DNA of 64,000 bases, taken from contig OY762911.1 of assembly GCA_963666565.1 (NCBI GenBank), forward strand, positions 4,320,001-4,384,000. The letters run 5' to 3'. This stretch comes from Thermoanaerobaculia bacterium. GTDB taxonomy: Bacteria; Acidobacteriota; Thermoanaerobaculia; Multivoradales; Multivoraceae. Positions 3,625 to 37,198 of this stretch are shown here, one piece after another (position 1 is the stretch's first letter; every line of letters begins with the position of its first letter). The notes beneath the pieces are model-generated. The model saw nothing but the letters and a program-made list of their open reading frames with translations, made no database searches and was not told the origin of the DNA. Position numbers and translations under genes: made by a program.

Positions 3625-4764
3625 ATGACCGGGCGCCACCCGCTCGACGGCGTCCTCGTCGTGGCCATCGAGCAGGCGGTGGCGGCGCCGCTGGCCACCT
3701 GCCGGTTGGCCGACGCCGGGGCGCGGGTCATCAAGGTCGAACGCGAGGGCGGCGACTTCGCCCGCGGCTACGACGGCAGCGGCGGTGTCTCGGCCTACTT
3801 CGCCTGGCTGAACCGCGGCAAGGAGTCCATCGTTCTCGACATCAAGGACGCGGGCGACAGAACCCTGCTCGAACGGATGATCGAGCGCGCGGATGTGTTC
3901 ATCCAGAACCTCGCTCCGGGCGCCGCCGCGCGCGCCGGCATCGGGTCGAAGGACCTCGGCAAGCGTCATCCCCGGCTGATCACCTGCGACATCTCCGGGT
4001 ACGGCGAGGAGGGTCCGTACCGGTCGATGCGCGCCTACGACCTCCTGGTCCAGGCCGAGAGCGGCGTCGCATCGATCACCGGTTCGCCGGAGGAGCCAGG
4101 ACGTGTCGGCGTATCGATCTGCGACTTCGCCACCGGCATCTACGCCTACTCCGCCATCCTCGAAGCCCTGATCGAGCGCGAGAGTACCGGCGCCGGCCGC
4201 AACGTCGAGGCCACCCTCTTCCACACGATGGCGGACTGGATGGCCGTGCCCCTGCTCAGCTTCGAGCAGCAGGGTCTCGACTGGCCGCGAGTCGGCCTCG
4301 GCCACCCGACGATCGTGCCCTACGGCCTGTTCCGGCTCGGTGACGGCGACTCCGTCCTGATCGGCGTCCAGAACGACCGCGAGTTCGTGCGGCTGTGCAA
4401 CGAGGTTCTCGACCGGCCGGAACTGGCCGACGCCTATCCGCGGAACGTGGACCGCGCCAATGCCCGCGACACCGTCGAAGGCGCGATCGGCGCCGTCTTC
4501 CGGCGACACGACCGCGCTTCGATCCAGGCCGCCCTGAACCAGGCCCGCATCGCCTACGGCTTCCTGAACGACGTGGCCGCGCTGTCGCGCCATCCACAAC
4601 TCCGCCGGGCCAGGCAACCTCTCCCCGACGGCACCGAGATCGACATGGTCGCACCCGCCGCCGCCCCCTACGAACCGGGAAGACGCCTGCCGCCGGTTCC
4701 CGAACTGGACGAGCACGGCGCCGCGGTCCGCGCCGAGTTCGGGACCGGCCCCGGGGCCGCGTAG
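3625..4764 (+). CDS. CoA-transferase family III (CaiB/BaiF)
   Basis: PLDGVLVVAIEQAVAAP, GARVIKVER, NRGKESIVLD, ADVFIQNLAPG, AYDLLVQAESG. Confidence 0.9.
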   Translation: MTGRHPLDGVLVVAIEQAVAAPLATCRLADAGARVIKVEREGGDFARGYDGSGGVSAYFAWLNRGKESIVLDIKDAGDRTLLERMIERADVFIQNLAPGAAARAGIGSKDLGKRHPRLITCDISGYGEEGPYRSMRAYDLLVQAESGVASITGSPEEPGRVGVSICDFATGIYAYSAILEALIERESTGAGRNVEATLFHTMADWMAVPLLSFEQQGLDWPRVGLGHPTIVPYGLFRLGDGDSVLIGVQNDREFVRLCNEVLDRPELADAYPRNVDRANARDTVEGAIGAVFRRHDRASIQAALNQARIAYGFLNDVAALSRHPQLRRARQPLPDGTEIDMVAPAAAPYEPGRRLPPVPELDEHGAAVRAEFGTGPGAA

Positions 4765-4780
4765 GGCTGCGGTAAGTGCC

Positions 4781-4953
4781 GCCTGCGGCGGTCCGGGGGA
4801 AGGGTGCCAGCGGACGCTCACGCTTTCTTGGTGGTTGGGAGGTGAGCGCTCGCTTCGGTCGGCTGCGCTCCGTCAGGTCGGAGGTAGGCGTACGGGCATC
4901 GGGCGTCGCTTGCCTCCAGCCCGCTGGCACCCTTCCCCCGGACCGCCGCAGGC
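4781..4953. repeat. 173-bp element with perfect 33-bp terminal inverted repeats (copy A)
   Basis: GCCTGCGGCGGTCCGGGGGAAGGGTGCCAGCGG (4781-4813) is the exact reverse complement of 4921-4953. The element is colinear with 36915-37087. Confidence 0.85.
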
Positions 4954-4985
4954 TGGACGACCTGCCGTGAACGCGGCCTCGCTCC

Positions 4986-6879: not shown

Positions 6880-6948
6880 CTGGGTGCGCGGGTCTTCTGA
6901 CCCGCTGCCGCCGCAGGCGGCGGAAGAACGCCGCCGCGAAGCGGCGAC
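6880..6948 (+). repeat. REP-like palindromic element, copy 1
   Basis: CTGGGTGC-GCGGGTC-TTCT-GACCCGC hairpin followed by GCCGCCGCAGGCGGC and CGCCGCGAAGCGGCG hairpins. Confidence 0.8.
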
Positions 6949-6966: not shown

Positions 6967-8151
6967 TCAACCGACGATCTTCAGGCGGCGCAGTTCGTCG
7001 ATCTCGGCGGCCGTCATGCCCAACCCCCCCAGCAGGTCGTCGGCGCCCTCGCCCAGGGCCGGCGACGGCGCGACCGGCGCCGGCGGCGTACCCGAGAACT
7101 TCGCCGCCGGACGAGGCACCCTCATCCGGCCGACCTGCGGATGATCGACTTCCCGCAGCAGCTCGTTCTCGACCACCTGCGGGTCGGTCAGCACCTCGTT
7201 GCGGGTCAGGATCGGCGCACAGGGCACATCCTCGGCTTCGAGCGCGGCGATCCACTCCACGGAGGTGCGCTGCCGCATGACGTCGCCGACCATGTCGAGC
7301 CGCTGGTCAGCGTTCGAGATCCGCCCCGCCGCCGTGTTGTACCGCTCGTCCTCCAGCCACTCGAGATGGCCGGTGGCCTGGGCCATGCCCTCCCACTCGG
7401 CGTCGGAGATCGTGGACGCCGTGATGTAACCGTCGGCGGTCCGGTAGATCAGGTCGCTGGTCGACCCGGGCCGGCCGTGCGCGACCTCGCCGCCGACCAG
7501 GATCTGGCGCACGAAGCCCTCGGGCCAGGTGAAGGAGATCGTCGCGTCGAGCATGGCGAGGTCCAGGTGCTGGCCCTCCCCCGTCCGTTCGCGGGCCAGC
7601 AGCGCCGCGGTGATCGCCTGGGCCGCGGTCAGGCCGGTCACCTTGTCCGGGATGATCGTCCGCACCATCTTCGGCTCGCCGGTGACGCGGTCGGCCTGGA
7701 TGTCGGCGAAGCCCGACAGAGCCTGGATGATCGGGTCGTACACGCGCTTCTGGGCGTACGGCCCTTCCTGCCCGAAGCCGCTGATCGACGCATAGACGAG
7801 CCGGGGATTCAGCTCGCGCAGGCGCTCCGCGCCCAGCCCCAGCCGGTCGATCACGCCGGGCCGGAAGTTCTGGACGAAGACGTCGGCGGTGCCGACCAGC
7901 TTCAGCAGGAGGTCGATGCCGCGCTCCTGCTTCAGATCGAGGACCAGGGAGCGCTTGCCGCGGTTGATCGTCGCGAACCCGGCGGTGACGCCGCCTCGCT
8001 GCGGTCCGAGGCGGCGCATGATGTCGCCGCCCGGGGGCGCCTCGACCTTGACGACCTCCGCGCCCTGGTCGGCGAGGAGCATCGTGGCGATCGGGGCCGA
8101 GACCATCGTCGCCAGTTCGATGACCCGGTAGCCGTCGAGTGGACCGCCCAT
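6967..8151 (-). CDS. CoA-transferase family III (CaiB/BaiF)
   Basis: MGGPLDGYRVIEL, LADQGAEVVKVE, NRGKRSLVLDLK, ADVFVQNFRPG, YDPIIQALSG. True start is the ATG at 8151; the longer ORF is a read-through extension. Confidence 0.9.
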   Translation of the reverse strand: MGGPLDGYRVIELATMVSAPIATMLLADQGAEVVKVEAPPGGDIMRRLGPQRGGVTAGFATINRGKRSLVLDLKQERGIDLLLKLVGTADVFVQNFRPGVIDRLGLGAERLRELNPRLVYASISGFGQEGPYAQKRVYDPIIQALSGFADIQADRVTGEPKMVRTIIPDKVTGLTAAQAITAALLARERTGEGQHLDLAMLDATISFTWPEGFVRQILVGGEVAHGRPGSTSDLIYRTADGYITASTISDAEWEGMAQATGHLEWLEDERYNTAAGRISNADQRLDMVGDVMRQRTSVEWIAALEAEDVPCAPILTRNEVLTDPQVVENELLREVDHPQVGRMRVPRPAAKFSGTPPAPVAPSPALGEGADDLLGGLGMTAAEIDELRRLKIVG

Positions 8152-8169: not shown

Positions 8170-8233
8170 GCGCGCCGCGGGTTTCTGGCCGCCTTCGGCG
8201 GCATGCGGGTCGGAAGACCCGCGCACCCAGCGG
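8170..8233 (-). repeat. REP-like palindromic element, copy 2
   Basis: GCGGGTCGGAAGACCCGCGCACCCAGCGG at 8205-8233 is the reverse complement of the family core; GCCGCCTTCGGCGGC hairpin adjacent. Confidence 0.8.
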
Positions 8234-8240
8234 GCAGCGG

Positions 8241-31847: not shown

Positions 31848-34217
31848 ATGAACCCGCTACGACGCACCGCGCCGGCGATCGCCCTGTTCCTCGCCTCGAC
31901 GACGGCGGCCCAGGAGATCGAGACGACCCGCTTCGAGGTCCCCGGCCTCGACGCGCCGGTCGAGATCCTGGTCGACCGCTGGGGCGTCGCCCACGTCTTC
32001 GCCGGCGGCCAGGACGACCTGTTCTTTGCCCAGGGCTGGAACGCGGCCCGCGACCGGCTGTGGCAGATCGACCTCTGGCGCCGGCGCGGCGAGGGGACGC
32101 TCTCGGAGGTCTTCGGGCCCCGCTTCGTCGAGCAGGACCGGGCCGCCCGGCTGCTGCTCTACCGCGGCGACATGCACGCGGAGTGGCTCGCCTACGCCTC
32201 GGACACGAAGCGGATCGTCACCGCCTGGACCCGCGGCGTCAATGCCTACGTTGACCTTGTGCTGAAGCGCCCCGACCTGATGCCGCCGGAGTTCGAGGCG
32301 CTGGGCTACGAGCCGTCGCATTGGACGCCGGAGGCGGTGACCCGGATCCGCAGTCACGGTCTGCTGCGGAACGCAACGAGCGAGTTCTCCCGGGCGAGGT
32401 TCCTGGCGGAGCACGGCGCCGCGGCGCTGGCGCTCCGCGACCGGTACCAACCGGACCATCGGCTCGAGGTACCGGAAGGTCTCGATCTCGCTGCTCTCAG
32501 CACGGCGCCCAGGGCGCTGGACCTCTACCGGCTGGGCACCCGGGGCGTCCGCTTCAGCGACCTCGAGCCGGGCTTTCAGAACGAGGTCGACCCGGCATCC
32601 CAGGGCAGCAACAACTGGGCGATCTCGCCGCGCCGCACCGCCACCGGCCGGCCACTGCTCGCGAACGACCCGCACCGCACACAGGCCGTGCCCTCGCTCC
32701 GCTACATCGTCCACCTCAGTTCGCCGGACCTCGACCTGATCGGCGCCGGCGAGCCCGCGCTGCCCGGCATCTCGATCGGACACAACGGCACGATCGCCTT
32801 CGGGCTGACCATCTTCAGCATCGACCAGGAAGACCTCTACGTCTACAGGACGAAGCCCGGCGAGCCCGACTTCTACGAGCACCGGGGCAACTGGCTGCCG
32901 ATGGAGACGATCGAGGAGACGATCCCGGTTCGCGGCGGCCACGCCCGCACCATGGAGCTCCGCTTCACCCACCACGGCCCCGTGCTCTACCGGGACGCCG
33001 ACCGCGACCTGGCGATCGGTCTGCGCGCGGCCTGGCTGGAGCCCGGCATGGCGCCCTATCTCGGATCGATCGAGTACATCCGGGCGCGCAACTGGGACCA
33101 GTTCCTGGCCGCGATGAACCGCTGGGGAACGCCGTCCGAGAACCAGGTCTACGCCGACACGAACGGCAACATCGGCTGGAAGCCGGGCGGCCTGGCGCCG
33201 GTCCGGCCCAACTGGGACGGTCTGCTGCCGGTGCCGGGCGATGGCCGCTACGAGTGGAGCGGCTACCGGGACATGGACGAACTGCCGGTCGAGTTCAATC
33301 CGGAGCGCGGCTGGGTGGCGACCGCCAACGAGATGAACCTGCCCGCCGGCTACGACGTGCCGCTGGGCTGGGAGTGGGCCGGACCCTACCGGCAACAGCG
33401 AATCGCCGAGGTCCTGGACGCCAAGGACGCGATGACGGTCGAGGGCGCCGTCCGGCTCCAGACCGACTACGTCTCGATACCCGCGCGCCGTCTTCACGCG
33501 CTGCTGGGACGAGCGAGTCCGACACCGGAGGCCGGGCCGGCGCTCGAGCTGCTGGGCGGCTGGAACGCGGAGCTCGCCGCGGACAGCGCCGCGGCCGCCC
33601 TCTTCGAAGTCTGGTGGCGACGGCACCTCGAAGCCGAGGTCGGCCGGCGGATGGCGGCGGCCCTCGGGGCGGGCGAGGACCCGCTCCCGGTCCAGGACGA
33701 GCACCTGCTCCGGGTGCTCGAAGAGATGGATCCGAGGCTCGGCGACCGGCCGCGGCGGGCGCGCGACGAGGCGCTCCTCGACAGCCTGCGGGCCGCGTAC
33801 GTCGACGTCAGCGAGCGCCTGGGCCCTGACCCCGCCGCCTGGCGCTGGGGCGACCTGCACCGGATCGAACTGCGGCATCCGCTGTCGGCGCACCTGCCGG
33901 ACGACATCCGCCGGCTCGCCGACGTCGGCCCCGCGGAGCGCGGCGGCTCCGGCGACACGGTCGGCAACACGAGCTACGGCGACGACGTCAACCAGCGCTC
34001 CGGCGCCTCCTTCCGCATGGTCATCGACGTCGGCGACTGGGACGCCTCCGTGGCGATGAACAACCCCGGCCAGTCGGGCGATCCGCGCAGTCCGCACTAC
34101 AAGGACCTGTTCGAGCCGTGGGCGAACGACGAGGCGTTTCCCCTGCTCTACACCCGCCCCGCGATTCTGGAAGCGGCGGAGGCACGGATCGAACTGCTTC
34201 CCGCTCCCGGGGAGTAG
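31848..34217 (+). CDS. Penicillin acylase family (Ntn hydrolase, S45)
   Basis: Signal peptide; [21 protein letters not shown], catalytic [26 protein letters not shown]. Confidence 0.93.
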
Positions 34218-34274
34218 CCAAACAGGCCCGGCAAACCGGGTTCGATCACCCGGGAGGCAAAGGAGCCGGCCTCC

Positions 34275-34337
34275 GGCCGGCGCGTCTTCCTGGCCGACTC
34301 CGGCGGGAGCGGGTCGGAAGACCCGCGCACCCGGCGG
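34275..34337 (-). repeat. REP-like palindromic element, copy 5
   Basis: GCGGGTCGGAAGACCCGCGCACCCGGCGG at 34309-34337. Confidence 0.78.
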
Positions 34338-34397
34338 AAGGCTGGCGCCGCTCCGCGACGACACCGGTAGAGGCGGTAGACTGCACGGCAATCCCGA

Positions 34398-34883
34398 ATG
34401 ACCGTCGTCACCAGAGCGCTCCGGGCCGCGGCCTTCACGTCGCTCGGCCTGACCGCGGCCGCGGCCGGCCAGTCCGAGGCCGCCCCAGGCACCGGCCCGG
34501 CAGACGATCAGGCGGTGGCCGCCGTCAATCCGACGCCCTACACGCAGGCCGCCGCGAAGAGGGGCCGCACCCACTACCTGCGCCACTGCCAGATCTGCCA
34601 CGGCTTCGACGGCCGCGCGCTCGAGAACATCGACTTCGAGGCCACCGACCTGACCGACCCCGATCGCTGGCGGTTCGGAACCACCGACGGCGACCTCTTC
34701 CGCAGCACGAAGTTCGGCGCCGGCCTCGACATGCCGCCCTTCGAGGCGGAACTCGACGACGAGGAGATCTGGGACCTCGTTCACTACCTCCGCAGCCTCG
34801 GCCCCGAGGAGTACCGCGCGGCGGCCGAACCGGAACCGGCCCCGCCCTCCGCCTCCGAAGACAGCGAGGAGAATCGACCATGA
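34398..34883 (+). CDS. Monoheme c-type cytochrome
   Basis: Signal peptide, CQICH heme motif, MPPF distal Met, [12 protein letters not shown]. Confidence 0.88.
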
Positions 34884-36910
34884 GCAGACCCCAACGACCG
34901 TCGCGCACGCCCAATCCCGCACCATCCGCCGCGGACGCTGCCGGCGCCGAGACGGCGCAACCGGTCGACGAAACCACCCGCGCCGACTCCGGCCTCTCGC
35001 GCCGCCGCTTCGTCGCCTCCGGCGCCGCCAGTGCCGCCGGCGTCGGCGCCGCGGCCCTGTTCGCGCAGCAGGCCCGGGCCGCCGCCGCGGACCGCGAGGA
35101 TCGGCCGATCGGCATTCCCGACGAGATCCCGCGCACCCGGAACGAAGCGCCGGACCCGGCCGAGTTCCCGATGAACGGCGCCCAGGTCTTCGCCCGGGCC
35201 TGCGCCGACGAGGGCCTCGAGGCGCTGTTCTGCGCGCCCGGCAACTACCAGGTCATCAACGCGATCGCCGCCGAGGGCATCCCCACCTACGGCGGCCGCA
35301 CCGAGGGCAGCATGTGCGCCGCCGCCGACGGCTTCATCCGGGTCACCGGCGAGGTCGCCGCCTGCTCGGGCACCGAGGGGCCGGGCTTCACGAACATGAT
35401 CATGAACATCGGCGCCGCCAACGCGGCCCGCACGCCGCTGCTGGTGCTGGCGAGCAACATGACGGTCGGCGGCGACGACACGGAACGCGGCATCCAGCGC
35501 GGCTACCAGCAGCCGACGACGGTCGGCATGAAGAAGTACGGCAAGCGGCTGATCACCCCGAACCGGATCCACGAGTACGCTGCCTACGCCTTCCGCCACC
35601 TTCGCACCGGCGTGCCGCGGCCGGTCCACCTCGACTTCACGGGCGAGGTGGCGCGCGCCCGGTTCGACTCCCCCGACGACCTGCTGTACTACCACGACAG
35701 GGGCACGTACCGCACCGATTCCCTGCCCCATCCCTCGAAGGTCGACACGGAGAAGGCGGTCGAGATGATCCGCAAGGCCGAGCGGCCGATCGTCGTCGCC
35801 TCGACCGGCGTCTTCTACGACCGGGCCTGGGACGTGCTGCGCACCGTCGCCGAACGGGCCGACATCGCGGTCGTCGAGTCCGGGCCGATGCGTGGGCACT
35901 TCCCGGACAGCCACCCCTTGTCGGTCAGCACCGGTCCCGACGCGCTCCTCTCGGCCGACCTCGTCATCTTCGTGGGCCAGTACTCGATGCCCAACGTCGG
36001 CGAGGTCGCCTTCGACCCGGACGCGAAGGTGATCCGCATCGACCCGGACGCGGCGGACATCGGCCGCAACCTGCCGGTGGATCTCGGCCTCGTCGCCAGC
36101 GCGCGCGGCGGCCTGGAGGCGCTCGCGGAAGCGCTGCCGCCTGCCTCGCGCCCGGCCTGGCGCGCCGAACTCGCCGCCGCCCGCGACGCGTTCGAGAAGC
36201 AGAACGCCGAGTGGTACGAGCTCGGGCTGAAGCACAGCGCCGCCACGGACACGATCCATCCGGCGGTCATCGCGCAGGAACTCTCATCATTCCTCTACTC
36301 CGGCGACCTGCCGAAGGAGCAGACGACGGTCGTCTCGGGCGGCTACGGCATCGCCCGCTACACCCGGCGCTGGCTGCGCGCCCACCGCCCGGGTCAGATC
36401 CTGAACGGCGCCTACCAGTACGGCGCGATCGGACCCGACGTCGGCTACACGGTCGGCGCCGGCGCCGCGGTGATGAACGGCGTCGGCCCGCAGGAACCGT
36501 ACCGCGGCGCGCCCGTGTTCGGGATCACCGGCGACGCCGGCATGGGCTACTCCGGAATGGAGTTCGAGACCCTGGCGAAGTACAGGATCCCGGCGGTGAT
36601 GATCGTCTACAACAACAACGCCTGGGGCGTCTACGGATCGGCCCGCCGCGCCACGCGGTCGATGCACATGTACCTCTTCCAGGAGAACTTGCGCTACGAC
36701 AAGATCGCCGAGGGCCTGGGCGCCCGCGGCGAGTACGTCACCTCCCCCGAACAACTCCGCGAAGCCCTGCCCCGCAGCTACGAGATGGCCGCCAACGACG
36801 GCGTCTCCACCCTCATCAACTGCCAGGCCATCAAGGAGTTCTGGACCAACGAGTACCCGCCCGGCCTGCCCCGCAAGGTCGAACCCGGCTGCATGGCGTA
36901 CTACCACTGA
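34880..36910 (+). CDS. Thiamine-diphosphate-dependent enzyme (Oxc/HACL/ALS superfamily) with a twin-arginine signal
   Basis: SRRRFV + Ala-rich h-region + ARA; [12 protein letters not shown] (conserved Glu), [27 protein letters not shown]...YNNNAWG (ThDP/Mg motif). ATG at 34880 overlaps the cytochrome stop. Confidence 0.85.
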
Positions 36911-36914
36911 ACCC

Positions 36915-37087
36915 GCACGGGCGGGCTCTGGGGGAGGGTCCCAGGGGACGCTCGCCCTCACGGAGAAGGGGGGACGCATGGGCTCGCTGTTGTCGACTGC
37001 GCTCCAAGGCGGCGTCGGTTCCTGTGAGGACGTTGGAAGTCGCTTGTCTCCGACCCCCTGGGACCCTCCCCCAGAGCCCGCCCGTGC
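36915..37087. repeat. 173-bp element with perfect 33-bp terminal inverted repeats (copy B)
   Basis: GCACGGGCGGGCTCTGGGGGAGGGTCCCAGGGG (36915-36947) is the exact reverse complement of 37055-37087. The 107-nt core is colinear with copy A. Confidence 0.85.
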
Positions 37088-37130
37088 TGGTCGGCGGCGG
37101 ACTACGGATGGTTAGCCGGTGGGGAAGAGG

Positions 37131-37198
37131 CTGGGTGCGCGGGTCTTCTGACCCGCTGCCGCCGGAGGCGGCCAGAAAATCGCGCCGCGAAGCGGCGA
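37131..37198 (+). repeat. REP-like palindromic element, copy 6
   Basis: CTGGGTGCGCGGGTCTTCTGACCCGCTGCCGCCGGAGGCGGC...CGCCGCGAAGCGGCG; nearly identical to copy 1. Confidence 0.8.

What the first reader, a model, noticed from the sequence alone, without database searches (positions are those of the whole stretch)
4781..4953. 173-bp structured element whose 33-bp inverted repeats covary between copies
Seen: this element and 36915-37087 are both exactly 173 bp (33+107+33). The left arms differ at about a third of positions (GCCTGCGGCGGTCCGGGGGAAGGGTGCCAGCGG vs GCACGGGCGGGCTCTGGGGGAGGGTCCCAGGGG), yet each is a perfect complement of its own right arm, so every change is compensated. Both lie in the same orientation a few bases after the stop of a + strand gene. 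Ordinary MITE copies conserve TIR sequence and terminators are far shorter. Inference: a structure-selected family (ncRNA, 3'-UTR element, or ssDNA/HUH-mobilised REPIN-like element) that I cannot assign to a known class.
Basis: partly seen in the sequence, partly recalled or inferred. Interest (0 to 1): 0.8.

Follow-up and report, generated by a model that had tools for sequence, protein, structure and literature searches.

The report
Structured hairpin repeat after stop codons
The two look-alike stretches are copies of a roughly 200-base repeat that folds into a long hairpin with a branched tip, occurs about ninety times in this sponge-associated bacterium, and nearly always sits just behind a gene; it is a new, well-structured example of a known kind of small mobile repeat, and its job is still open.

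Summary
Both window elements are 33+107+33 nt with perfect arms that differ at 11 of 33 positions. They are 2 of 90 copies (80 full length) of a roughly 190-205-nt dispersed repeat in this 4.79-Mb, 70% GC genome.

The family has conserved end boxes, a variable but paired mid-stem, a conserved inner stem and a branched interior. Covariation is strong within the genus and across four genera of the order.

Copies are intergenic. 70 of 90 lie just after the stop codon of a gene in the same sense.

It matches no Rfam family. It is not linked to the genome's single RAYT. I found no parent insertion sequence, and the mobilising enzyme is unknown.

Near-identical copies, presence/absence between species, deletion relics and a tandem array show that it is, or was, mobile.

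Best reading: a REPIN/ERIC-like non-autonomous structured repeat. Its stem is kept strictly Watson-Crick, which points to the DNA level or to arm-to-arm correction. Its asymmetric interior and sense bias point to a role in 3' untranslated regions.

Compensated hairpin arms are already documented for REPINs, so the covariation alone is not new. This scan noted a related family before on other DNA (e1-714137).

The parts
4774..4960 (+). Copy A, whole element as matched by the covariance model
   Evidence: cmsearch with R1: 180.9 bits on the + strand, 46.2 bits on the - strand
4781..4813 (+). Copy A, left arm of the terminal stem: outer box, variable mid-stem, conserved inner stem
4816..4853 (+). 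Copy A, interior hairpin P2. Its base pairs covary in the family (GC 39, CG 10, AU 5 at one pair)
   Evidence: coordinates read
4861..4914 (+). Copy A, long-range helix P3 (GGC-TGC-GC with GC-TT-GCC) enclosing a variable, poorly supported hairpin P4
   Evidence: cross-family comparison read
4921..4953 (+). Copy A, right arm of the terminal stem
36908..37094 (+). Copy B, whole element as matched by the covariance model. Its first bases overlap the TGA stop of the upstream TPP-enzyme gene
   Evidence: cmsearch 151.9 bits on +, 44.1 bits on -; gene
36915..36947 (+). Copy B, left arm
37055..37087 (+). Copy B, right arm
3625..4764 (+). Upstream gene of copy A (CoA-transferase family III). The element lies in its 3' untranslated region
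34118..36910 (+). Upstream gene of copy B (TPP-dependent enzyme; the start is uncertain, possibly 35171)

Best explanation
The two elements belong to a lineage-specific family of non-autonomous, structured dispersed repeats of about 190-205 nt. The family behaves like REPINs, ERIC or Correia elements. It spreads, or has spread, as DNA through the intergenic regions of a sponge-associated Thermoanaerobaculia genus, and distant relatives occur in other families of the order.

Each copy folds into a terminal stem of about 31-45 bp. The stem has conserved outer boxes with a fixed C.T mismatch, a hypervariable mid-stem and a conserved inner stem. It closes a branched interior: hairpin P2, long-range helix P3 with a TGC/TT internal loop, and a variable P4.

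Shown: the family, its fold and covariation, its restriction to intergenic DNA, its sense bias directly behind stop codons, and its gain, loss and decay between species.

Inferred: (a) The hairpin is required for propagation, and its arms are kept complementary at the DNA level. This could be by selection for a hairpin that an unidentified enzyme recognises, by arm-to-arm template switching, or both. The stem tolerates no more G.U than A.C. (b) Because copies are co-transcribed in the sense orientation with the upstream gene, and only the + strand interior folds well, retained copies probably act in mRNA 3' ends as a stabilising or processing structure. This last step is not shown.
For: Family: 90 nhmmer hits, 80 of them full length.

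Intergenic position: 87 of 90 have no overlap with called genes; the other 3 overlap by 17-39 nt.

Orientation:
- 70 of 90 follow the 3' end of a same-sense gene.
- In tandem gene contexts, 32 are sense and 10 antisense (binomial p = 9e-4).
- 38 lie between convergent genes against 10 between divergent genes. The genome background is 403 convergent and 522 divergent intergenic regions.
- In 34 of the 38 convergent sites the element lies nearer the stop of the gene it is sense to.

Structure: on 54 sequences, 92.5% of cells pair, against 78.9% in shuffles and about 47% with slid partners. 356 cells have changes on both sides, against 94 in shuffles, and 0 of 500 shuffles reach the observed values. 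Across four genera, 92.7% pair, against 60.6% and about 43%, and 39 of 48 pairs have compensatory changes.

Strand asymmetry: the interior folds more stably on the + strand in 79 of 80 copies, median 9.6 kcal/mol. The model scores 181 and 152 bits on + against 46 and 44 bits on -.

DNA-level stem: in terminal-stem cells G.U occurs 26 times and A.C 40 times, among 1654 cells.

Mobility and turnover:
- 26 copies are at least 88% identical to another copy.
- Elements present in relatives are absent at four G000 sites.
- At copy A's own site there are microhomology deletion relics in G008, G016 and G003 and an empty site in G034 and G007.
- A relative carries a tandem array of 4 units.

In-situ compensated change between orthologous copies: C:G in G000 against T:A in the 5 other orthologues.

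Precedent for compensated arms in mobile hairpins: PMC3116915.
Against: - No mobilising enzyme was found. The only Y1/RAYT gene is flanked by a different repeat. No match to the Y1_Tnp (RAYT) family was found in three element-rich genomes, G005, G006 and G018. There is no TnpB. Neighbours of the few copies in distant genomes are ordinary genes.
- No target-site duplication or clean insertion junction could be defined.
- No transcript evidence exists. The only RNA runs hold contigs of a relative that lacks the element at this site.
- There is no U-tract: 1 of 80 copies has TTTT within 30 nt after the stem. So it is not a canonical terminator.
- The interior G.U excess (94 against 18) was counted on helices chosen on the + strand. 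It is therefore partly circular and not independent across related copies.
- My gene calls are a crude GC3-based caller, so the orientation counts may be off by a few.
Confidence: 0.6

Rival explanations
1. A purely selfish DNA element. The hairpin and interior matter only as a single-stranded DNA transposition or recognition substrate. The position behind stop codons and the sense bias come from target choice, for example hairpin loops or DNA made single-stranded by transcription, and from purging of harmful insertions. There is no RNA function.
For: The stem is strictly Watson-Crick with no wobble preference. The end boxes are conserved. A tandem array has a fixed period of 204-207 nt. At site 2725343 the element in G008 and G013 replaces the loop of a small hairpin that G000 keeps just after the stop codon. 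DNA folding parameters also favour the + strand, in 68 of 80 copies. The younger copies already show the bias: 9 sense to 4 antisense in tandem contexts, and 9 convergent to 4 divergent.
Against: There is no bias relative to replication direction (52 to 38), unlike elements that use lagging-strand single-stranded DNA. No HUH or other enzyme is linked. Orthologous copies keep pairing through compensated changes in situ, which needs maintenance after insertion.
Confidence: 0.27
2. The arm complementarity is not selected at all. It is produced mechanically by intramolecular template switching or mismatch correction within the quasi-palindrome, which copies a change, including small indels, from one arm to the other.
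For: Paired 1-3-nt indels occur at mirrored positions of the two arms between orthologous copies (groups 898113 and 2166035). In 21 nearest-neighbour pairs, compensated changes (87) outnumber single changes (55). There is no G.U preference in the stem. That quasi-palindromes are corrected by template switching is established knowledge recalled from the literature; I read nothing on it here.
Against: The C.T mismatch in the outer box survives in most copies, which unrestrained correction would erase. The short interior helices P2 and P3 covary too, also across families. The rate comparison is confounded: interiors are homogenised between neighbouring copies, as in the L025 pair, where interiors are 99% identical but the arms differ.
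Confidence: 0.3
3. The elements are folded-DNA recombination sites, like attC, marking the borders of exchangeable gene cassettes.
For: The layout is box, variable stem, box with a fixed mismatch, and the position behind genes is in a constant sense. Copy A's intergenic site holds a toxin-antitoxin-like cassette in other species.
Against: Copies are dispersed singly next to housekeeping genes. The cassette in G013 and its kin carries no element: 0 hits in 6 loci. The ends show no GTTRRRY-type core site (read; the motif itself is recalled). No integrase was looked for.
Confidence: 0.05
4. Independent small-RNA genes with their own promoters.
For: The fold is conserved, and the strand asymmetry is strong.
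Against: The element starts 0-40 nt after a stop codon. Median distances are, and copy B overlaps the stop. That leaves no room for a promoter. The same RNA would have to be made from 90 loci.
Confidence: 0.05

Closest known systems
REPINs (REP doublets forming hairpins) mobilised by RAYT transposases
   Same: High-copy, intergenic, non-autonomous repeats with conserved ends and a less conserved middle that must pair. Compensatory changes are common (PMC3116915). They also form tandem clusters and persist vertically within a lineage.
   Different: The arms are not copies of this genome's REP, which is a separate family of 863 sites. The RAYT gene is flanked by REPs, not by this element. No Y1_Tnp (RAYT) match was found in three element-rich genomes. 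The element is about twice as long and carries a 107-nt branched interior that is conserved across families.
ERIC/IRU, Correia/NEMIS, RUP, BOX and similar structured intergenic palindromic repeats (recalled; not read here)
   Same: Imperfect palindromes of 100-200 nt that are co-transcribed with flanking genes and act at the RNA level in an orientation-dependent way. That is the working model proposed here.
   Different: Different taxa and no sequence relation. No TA-type target duplication was seen. The interior has a covarying multi-helix junction conserved at the level of the order.
Integron attC sites
   Same: The structure is conserved while the sequence varies, with boxes flanking a variable stem and fixed unpaired bases. 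The site lies behind the gene in a constant sense.
   Different: Copies are dispersed rather than arrayed. There is no R'/R'' core motif, and the adjacent genes are housekeeping genes.
Family noted earlier in this scan (e1-714137): repeats of about 185 nt with a branched fold in Thermoanaerobaculia
   Same: Same phylum and class, similar size, branched fold, position downstream of genes, and shared short words (6 of 100).
   Different: That note concerned one rearranged relic in another genome and stressed cassette borders. Here there are 90 copies next to mostly ordinary genes.

Membership tests
REPIN / REP-RAYT system | The arms are two inverted copies of the genome's REP sequence | tested here: not met
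   The genome's REP (hairpin GCGGGTC-TTCC-GACCCGC type, 863 sites at 2 or fewer mismatches) is a different sequence from the arms
REPIN / REP-RAYT system | The cognate RAYT gene is flanked by the repeat and co-occurs with it | tested here: not met
   The single Y1_Tnp match at 749427 is flanked by REPs, and no element lies within 40 kb. No Y1_Tnp match in the element-rich genomes G005, G006 and G018
REPIN / REP-RAYT system | The hairpin is kept by compensatory changes | tested here: met
   the paper's passage
Classical MITE (derived from a DDE insertion sequence) | Terminal inverted repeats | tested here: met
Classical MITE (derived from a DDE insertion sequence) | Target-site duplication | tested here: inconclusive
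   No variable direct repeat was seen at the ends of 18 young copies. CGTCGG occurs on both flanks but is the same in all copies. The empty-site comparisons are not clean
Classical MITE (derived from a DDE insertion sequence) | A longer autonomous relative with the same ends | tested here: not met
   All BLAST and nhmmer matches in the own genome are element-sized. No transposase lies beside copies in distant genomes
IS200/IS605-derived palindrome-associated elements | A TnpA(Y1) or TnpB partner, and orientation tied to replication | tested here: not met
   No PF07282 match. The only Y1 gene is the RAYT. 52 to 38 relative to the replichore
Integron attC | Core sites R''/R' and arrays of cassettes next to intI | tested here: not met
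   The ends read CCCGCC...GGCTGG. Copies are dispersed. intI itself was not searched for
Any Rfam family | Score at or above the gathering threshold | tested here: not met
   0 matches in the window. The best sub-threshold match is a plant miRNA hairpin model at 23 of 142 bits
Intrinsic terminator | A short GC hairpin followed by a T/U run | tested here: not met
   1 of 80 copies has TTTT within 30 nt after the stem. The stems are 31-45 bp with a 107-nt interior

The most novel reading that the evidence does not exclude
This is an undescribed class of bacterial structured element, conserved across an order of Acidobacteriota. It would be a mobile 3'-UTR module whose long perfect stem and conserved three-way junction (GGGGACG junction, TGC/TT internal loop) are read by a dedicated, still unknown protein. 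It would both copy itself by a mechanism that is neither RAYT, TnpB nor classical DDE, and install a defined mRNA 3'-end structure behind the genes it lands after.
Probability: 0.2. Interest if true: 0.8.

Novelty: new variant of a known kind. Interest (0 to 1): 0.55.

Why it matters
Small structured repeats are among the least understood parts of bacterial genomes. Here a single complete genome offers 90 copies with a well-resolved, covarying fold and a clear sense bias behind stop codons. Orthologous copies, relics and empty sites are available in dozens of related genomes.

That makes two open questions directly testable. First, are such hairpins kept by selection or by arm-to-arm correction? 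Second, do mobile repeats get recruited as mRNA 3'-end modules?

It also gives annotators of sponge-symbiont Thermoanaerobaculia a model for about 2% of their intergenic regions, and a missing mobilising enzyme to look for.

Tried and rejected
- Rfam at gathering and at permissive thresholds found nothing usable.
- Insertion of a 143-nt core into a pre-existing family of hairpins is rejected. No core-less hairpin with CCCGYC...GRCTGG ends and a stem of 14 bp or more exists elsewhere in the genome (0 found).
- The RAYT link is rejected.
- The TnpB/omega-RNA idea: no TnpB.
- IS110 (5 identical copies) and reverse transcriptase (1-2 matches) are present but not near any copy (compared). I did not follow them further.
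- Replication-strand bias: none.
- RNA evidence: two metatranscriptome runs held only 5-7% of the words. Laid on the window, they gave contigs about 90-95% alike from a relative that has a 740-nt insert instead of the element at copy A's site. DNA contigs break at the repeat. So the runs say nothing about transcription of the element.
- Single-sequence folds of the interior disagree between copies. Helix P4 is weak: 73.5% and 70.2% paired.
- The stem changes twice as fast as the interior. I first read this as hypermutation of the arms. I dropped that reading after seeing that interiors are homogenised between neighbouring copies.
- Some young copies sit inside another repeat of about 115 nt bounded by CTAG. 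I considered that repeat as the true mobile unit. However, only 4-5 of about 18 young copies are embedded this way.
Its 14 hits outside the lineage lack the element: in 12 the HMM finds nothing, and in 2 it matches only about 28 model positions weakly. They are chance word matches.
- Literature: 'Candidatus Multivorans' gave 0 papers. Acidobacteria+sponge+symbiont+MITE gave 1 irrelevant paper. Multivorans/sponge/Thermoanaerobaculia gave listings only, none on repeats.
- One search was an aborted script with no output.

Full report
**Observation.**
- Window 4781-4953 and 36915-37087 are each 33+107+33 nt.
- The repeat finder reports them as the two best inverted repeats of the window: 38 nt at 95% and 37 nt at 97%, both with a 107-nt spacer. 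The next candidate is 42 nt at 71%.
- The two left arms differ at 11 of 33 positions, and each pairs perfectly with its own right arm (read).
- Copy A begins 16 nt after the stop of a CoA-transferase family III gene and faces a convergent UbiA prenyltransferase gene.
- Copy B begins 4 nt after the stop of a TPP-dependent enzyme gene.

**A large family.**
- The window lies in a single-contig genome of 4,786,144 bp with 70.2% GC.
- BLAST, then three rounds of nhmmer, found 90 copies, 80 of them full length.
- Alignment of the 80 and of 54 copies from the window and eight relatives shows the anatomy:
  - an outer box, CACCCGCC on the left and GGCTGG on the right, which pair with a fixed C.T mismatch;
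  - a mid-stem of 11-15 nt that differs from copy to copy but pairs;
  - a conserved inner stem of about 18 bp (GGGGAGGGTCCCAGCGG type);
  - an interior of about 107 nt with conserved blocks.
- The unit is longer than 173 nt. The covariance model matches 4774-4960 and 36908-37094. Flanks of a young subfamily are alike for about a dozen bases on each side. A relative carries four head-to-tail units with a period of 204-207 nt.
- The window copies are among the neatest. Only 10 of 80 have 33 bp or more of uninterrupted perfect pairing, and the median is 23 bp.

**Structure and covariation.**
- RNAalifold on the 54-sequence alignment predicts 42 pairs, 30 of them with changes on both sides.
- I added a hairpin (P4) by hand and counted pairs:
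  - 92.5% of cells pair, against 78.9% in shuffles and about 47% with slid partners;
  - 356 cells have compensated changes, against 94 in shuffles;
  - 0 of 500 shuffles reach the observed values.
- Support is strong for the terminal stem, for hairpin P2 (one pair reads GC 39, CG 10, AU 5) and for the long-range helix P3. It is weak for P4, at 73.5% paired.
- A model built from this alignment found full-length but distant relatives in other families of the order.
- On an alignment of 12 sequences from four genera, fitted to the model and therefore biased towards it, 92.7% of cells pair, against 60.6% in shuffles and about 43% with slid partners. 39 of 48 pairs show compensation.
- Reading those sequences, the GGGGACG junction and the TGC/TT internal loop of P3 recur while the helices around them change.

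**Which molecule folds?**
- The terminal stem is strictly Watson-Crick. Among 1654 cells, G.U occurs 26 times and A.C 40 times. A pairwise arm comparison in the own genome gave 48 against 57. A structure selected only as RNA would normally tolerate wobble pairs, so the stem looks constrained at the DNA level, or is kept by arm-to-arm copying.
- The interior is asymmetric. It is rich in G and T on the + strand and folds more stably there in 79 of 80 copies, by a median of 9.6 kcal/mol with RNA parameters. With DNA parameters the + strand wins in 68 of 80.
- The interior G.U excess (94 against 18) agrees with this. It was counted on helices chosen on the + strand and on related sequences, so it is only a hint.

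**Where the copies sit.**
- I used a crude GC3-based gene caller: 3597 genes covering 87.6% of the genome.
- 87 of 90 copies do not overlap a gene at all.
- 70 of 90 follow the 3' end of a gene of the same sense.
- In tandem gene contexts, 32 are sense and 10 antisense (p = 9e-4).
- 38 lie between convergent genes and 10 between divergent genes. The genome background is 403 convergent and 522 divergent intergenic regions.
- In 34 of the 38 convergent sites the element lies nearer the stop codon of the gene it is sense to.
- The median distance from the stop to the conserved core is about 50 nt, which is about 25 nt to the element's end.
- Copies with a close twin show the same trend, 9 to 4.
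- There is no clear bias relative to replication: 52 to 38.
- By my reading of the ORF list, 5 of 8 copies in distant genomes also lie just after a same-sense stop. Their neighbours are ordinary genes.
- Only 1 of 80 copies is followed by TTTT, so these are not canonical terminators.

**Mobility and turnover.**
- 26 copies are at least 88% identical to another copy.
- All 18 and then all 25 same-genus genomes searched by BLAST hold the family. None of 12 genomes from other genera did.
- The model found it in 13 of 13 genomes of the genus and 0 of 2 from other genera of the family. It gave weak matches in 6 genomes of three other families.
- At copy A's own site:
  - G008 and G016 keep the left arm joined to the outer right arm, through a deletion between CGGAC repeats;
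  - G003 keeps only the outer left arm;
  - G034 and G007 have 29 nt between the two genes and no trace of the element;
  - other species hold an insert of about 710 nt encoding an antitoxin-like and a PIN-like protein, with no element.
- Conversely, elements present in relatives are missing at four G000 sites.
- At one of these sites the element replaces the loop of a small hairpin behind the stop codon. At another it separates two genes that overlap by GTGA in G000.
- No junction was clean enough to define a target duplication.

**How the arms stay complementary.**
- Orthologous copies show compensated changes in situ. At one position G000 has C:G where five orthologues have T:A. There are also mirrored 1-3-nt indels in both arms.
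- In 21 nearest-neighbour pairs, compensated changes (87) outnumber single ones (55).
- The apparent twofold faster change of the stem is confounded. Neighbouring copies can have 99% identical interiors and different arms, which points to conversion of interiors between copies.
- Two explanations remain open: selection for a hairpin, and template-switch correction within the quasi-palindrome. The persistent C.T mismatch and the covariation of the short interior helices argue that correction alone is not enough.

**What it is not.**
- There is no Rfam match.
- The genome's single RAYT is flanked by a different, far more numerous REP family of 863 sites. Three element-rich genomes gave no match to the Y1_Tnp (RAYT) family.
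- There is no TnpB.
- There is no longer relative of the element in the genome.
- There is no family of core-less hairpins that could be the target.

**What is known.**
- Record titles of relatives name sponge-associated Thermoanaerobaculia MAGs, some called Candidatus Multivorans. The 14 hits in other taxa are chance word matches.
- I found nothing in print on repeats of this lineage.
[quoted passage not shown] Covarying arms in a mobile hairpin are therefore a known phenomenon.
- This scan noted a related family of about 185 nt in another Thermoanaerobaculia genome (e1-714137). My order-wide search agrees that such relatives exist.

**Verdict.** This is a real, well-defined and apparently undescribed family. 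It is a new variant of the known kind 'structured intergenic palindromic repeat'. The fold is unusually elaborate and deeply conserved, and the sense bias behind stop codons is clear. The mobilising enzyme and any RNA role remain unknown.

Noticed in passing
window 37130-37175, and genome-wide: A REP hairpin (GCGGGTC-TTCT-GACCCGC type) lies about 45 nt downstream of copy B. This REP family has 863 sites at 2 or fewer mismatches. REPs often sit 30-40 nt after elements of the family studied here.
   Followed up: partly
G000:C1 537749-537833, 1428324-1428408, 2315610-2315694 and others; one left-end motif at window 7991-8012 (- strand): A separate dispersed repeat of about 115 nt is bounded by CTAG. 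Its left-end motif gives 42 fuzzy hits and its right-end motif 151. In 4-5 cases its middle is replaced by a young copy of the structured element. Its left end resembles the left end of the 1869-bp insertion sequence.
   Followed up: partly
G000:C1 4483696-4485564 and five more places: A 1869-bp insertion sequence occurs in six near-identical copies. The copy inspected interrupts a left-end motif of the CTAG-bounded repeat. It was already noted by the scan as e1-6715599.
   Followed up: no
L017 (G013:C1) about 2062-2794, and the same site in G014, G018, G006, G001: At the site orthologous to copy A, these species carry an insert of about 710 nt encoding an antitoxin-like and a PIN-domain-like protein. 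This intergenic spot is a hot spot for accessory DNA.
   Followed up: partly
L053 (G013:C1:1134203-1135015): Four head-to-tail units of the element with a period of 204-207 nt. The second unit has different arms from the other three.
   Followed up: partly
G022, 18 matches, e.g. L185 1501-1605: A palindromic repeat of about 105 nt in another family of the order shares the CCCAGGGG / CCCCTGGG stem end but has only a loop of about 30 nt. The model matches it on both strands. It may be a minimal relative.
   Followed up: no
G000:C1 347495, 725427, 740466, 804435, 2464105: Five identical IS110-family transposase genes. None is near a copy of the element.
   Followed up: no
window 6880-6922 and 8183-8235: Very high summed contig depth and many joints and loose ends in the DNA runs mark further high-copy repeats in the window.
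   Followed up: no
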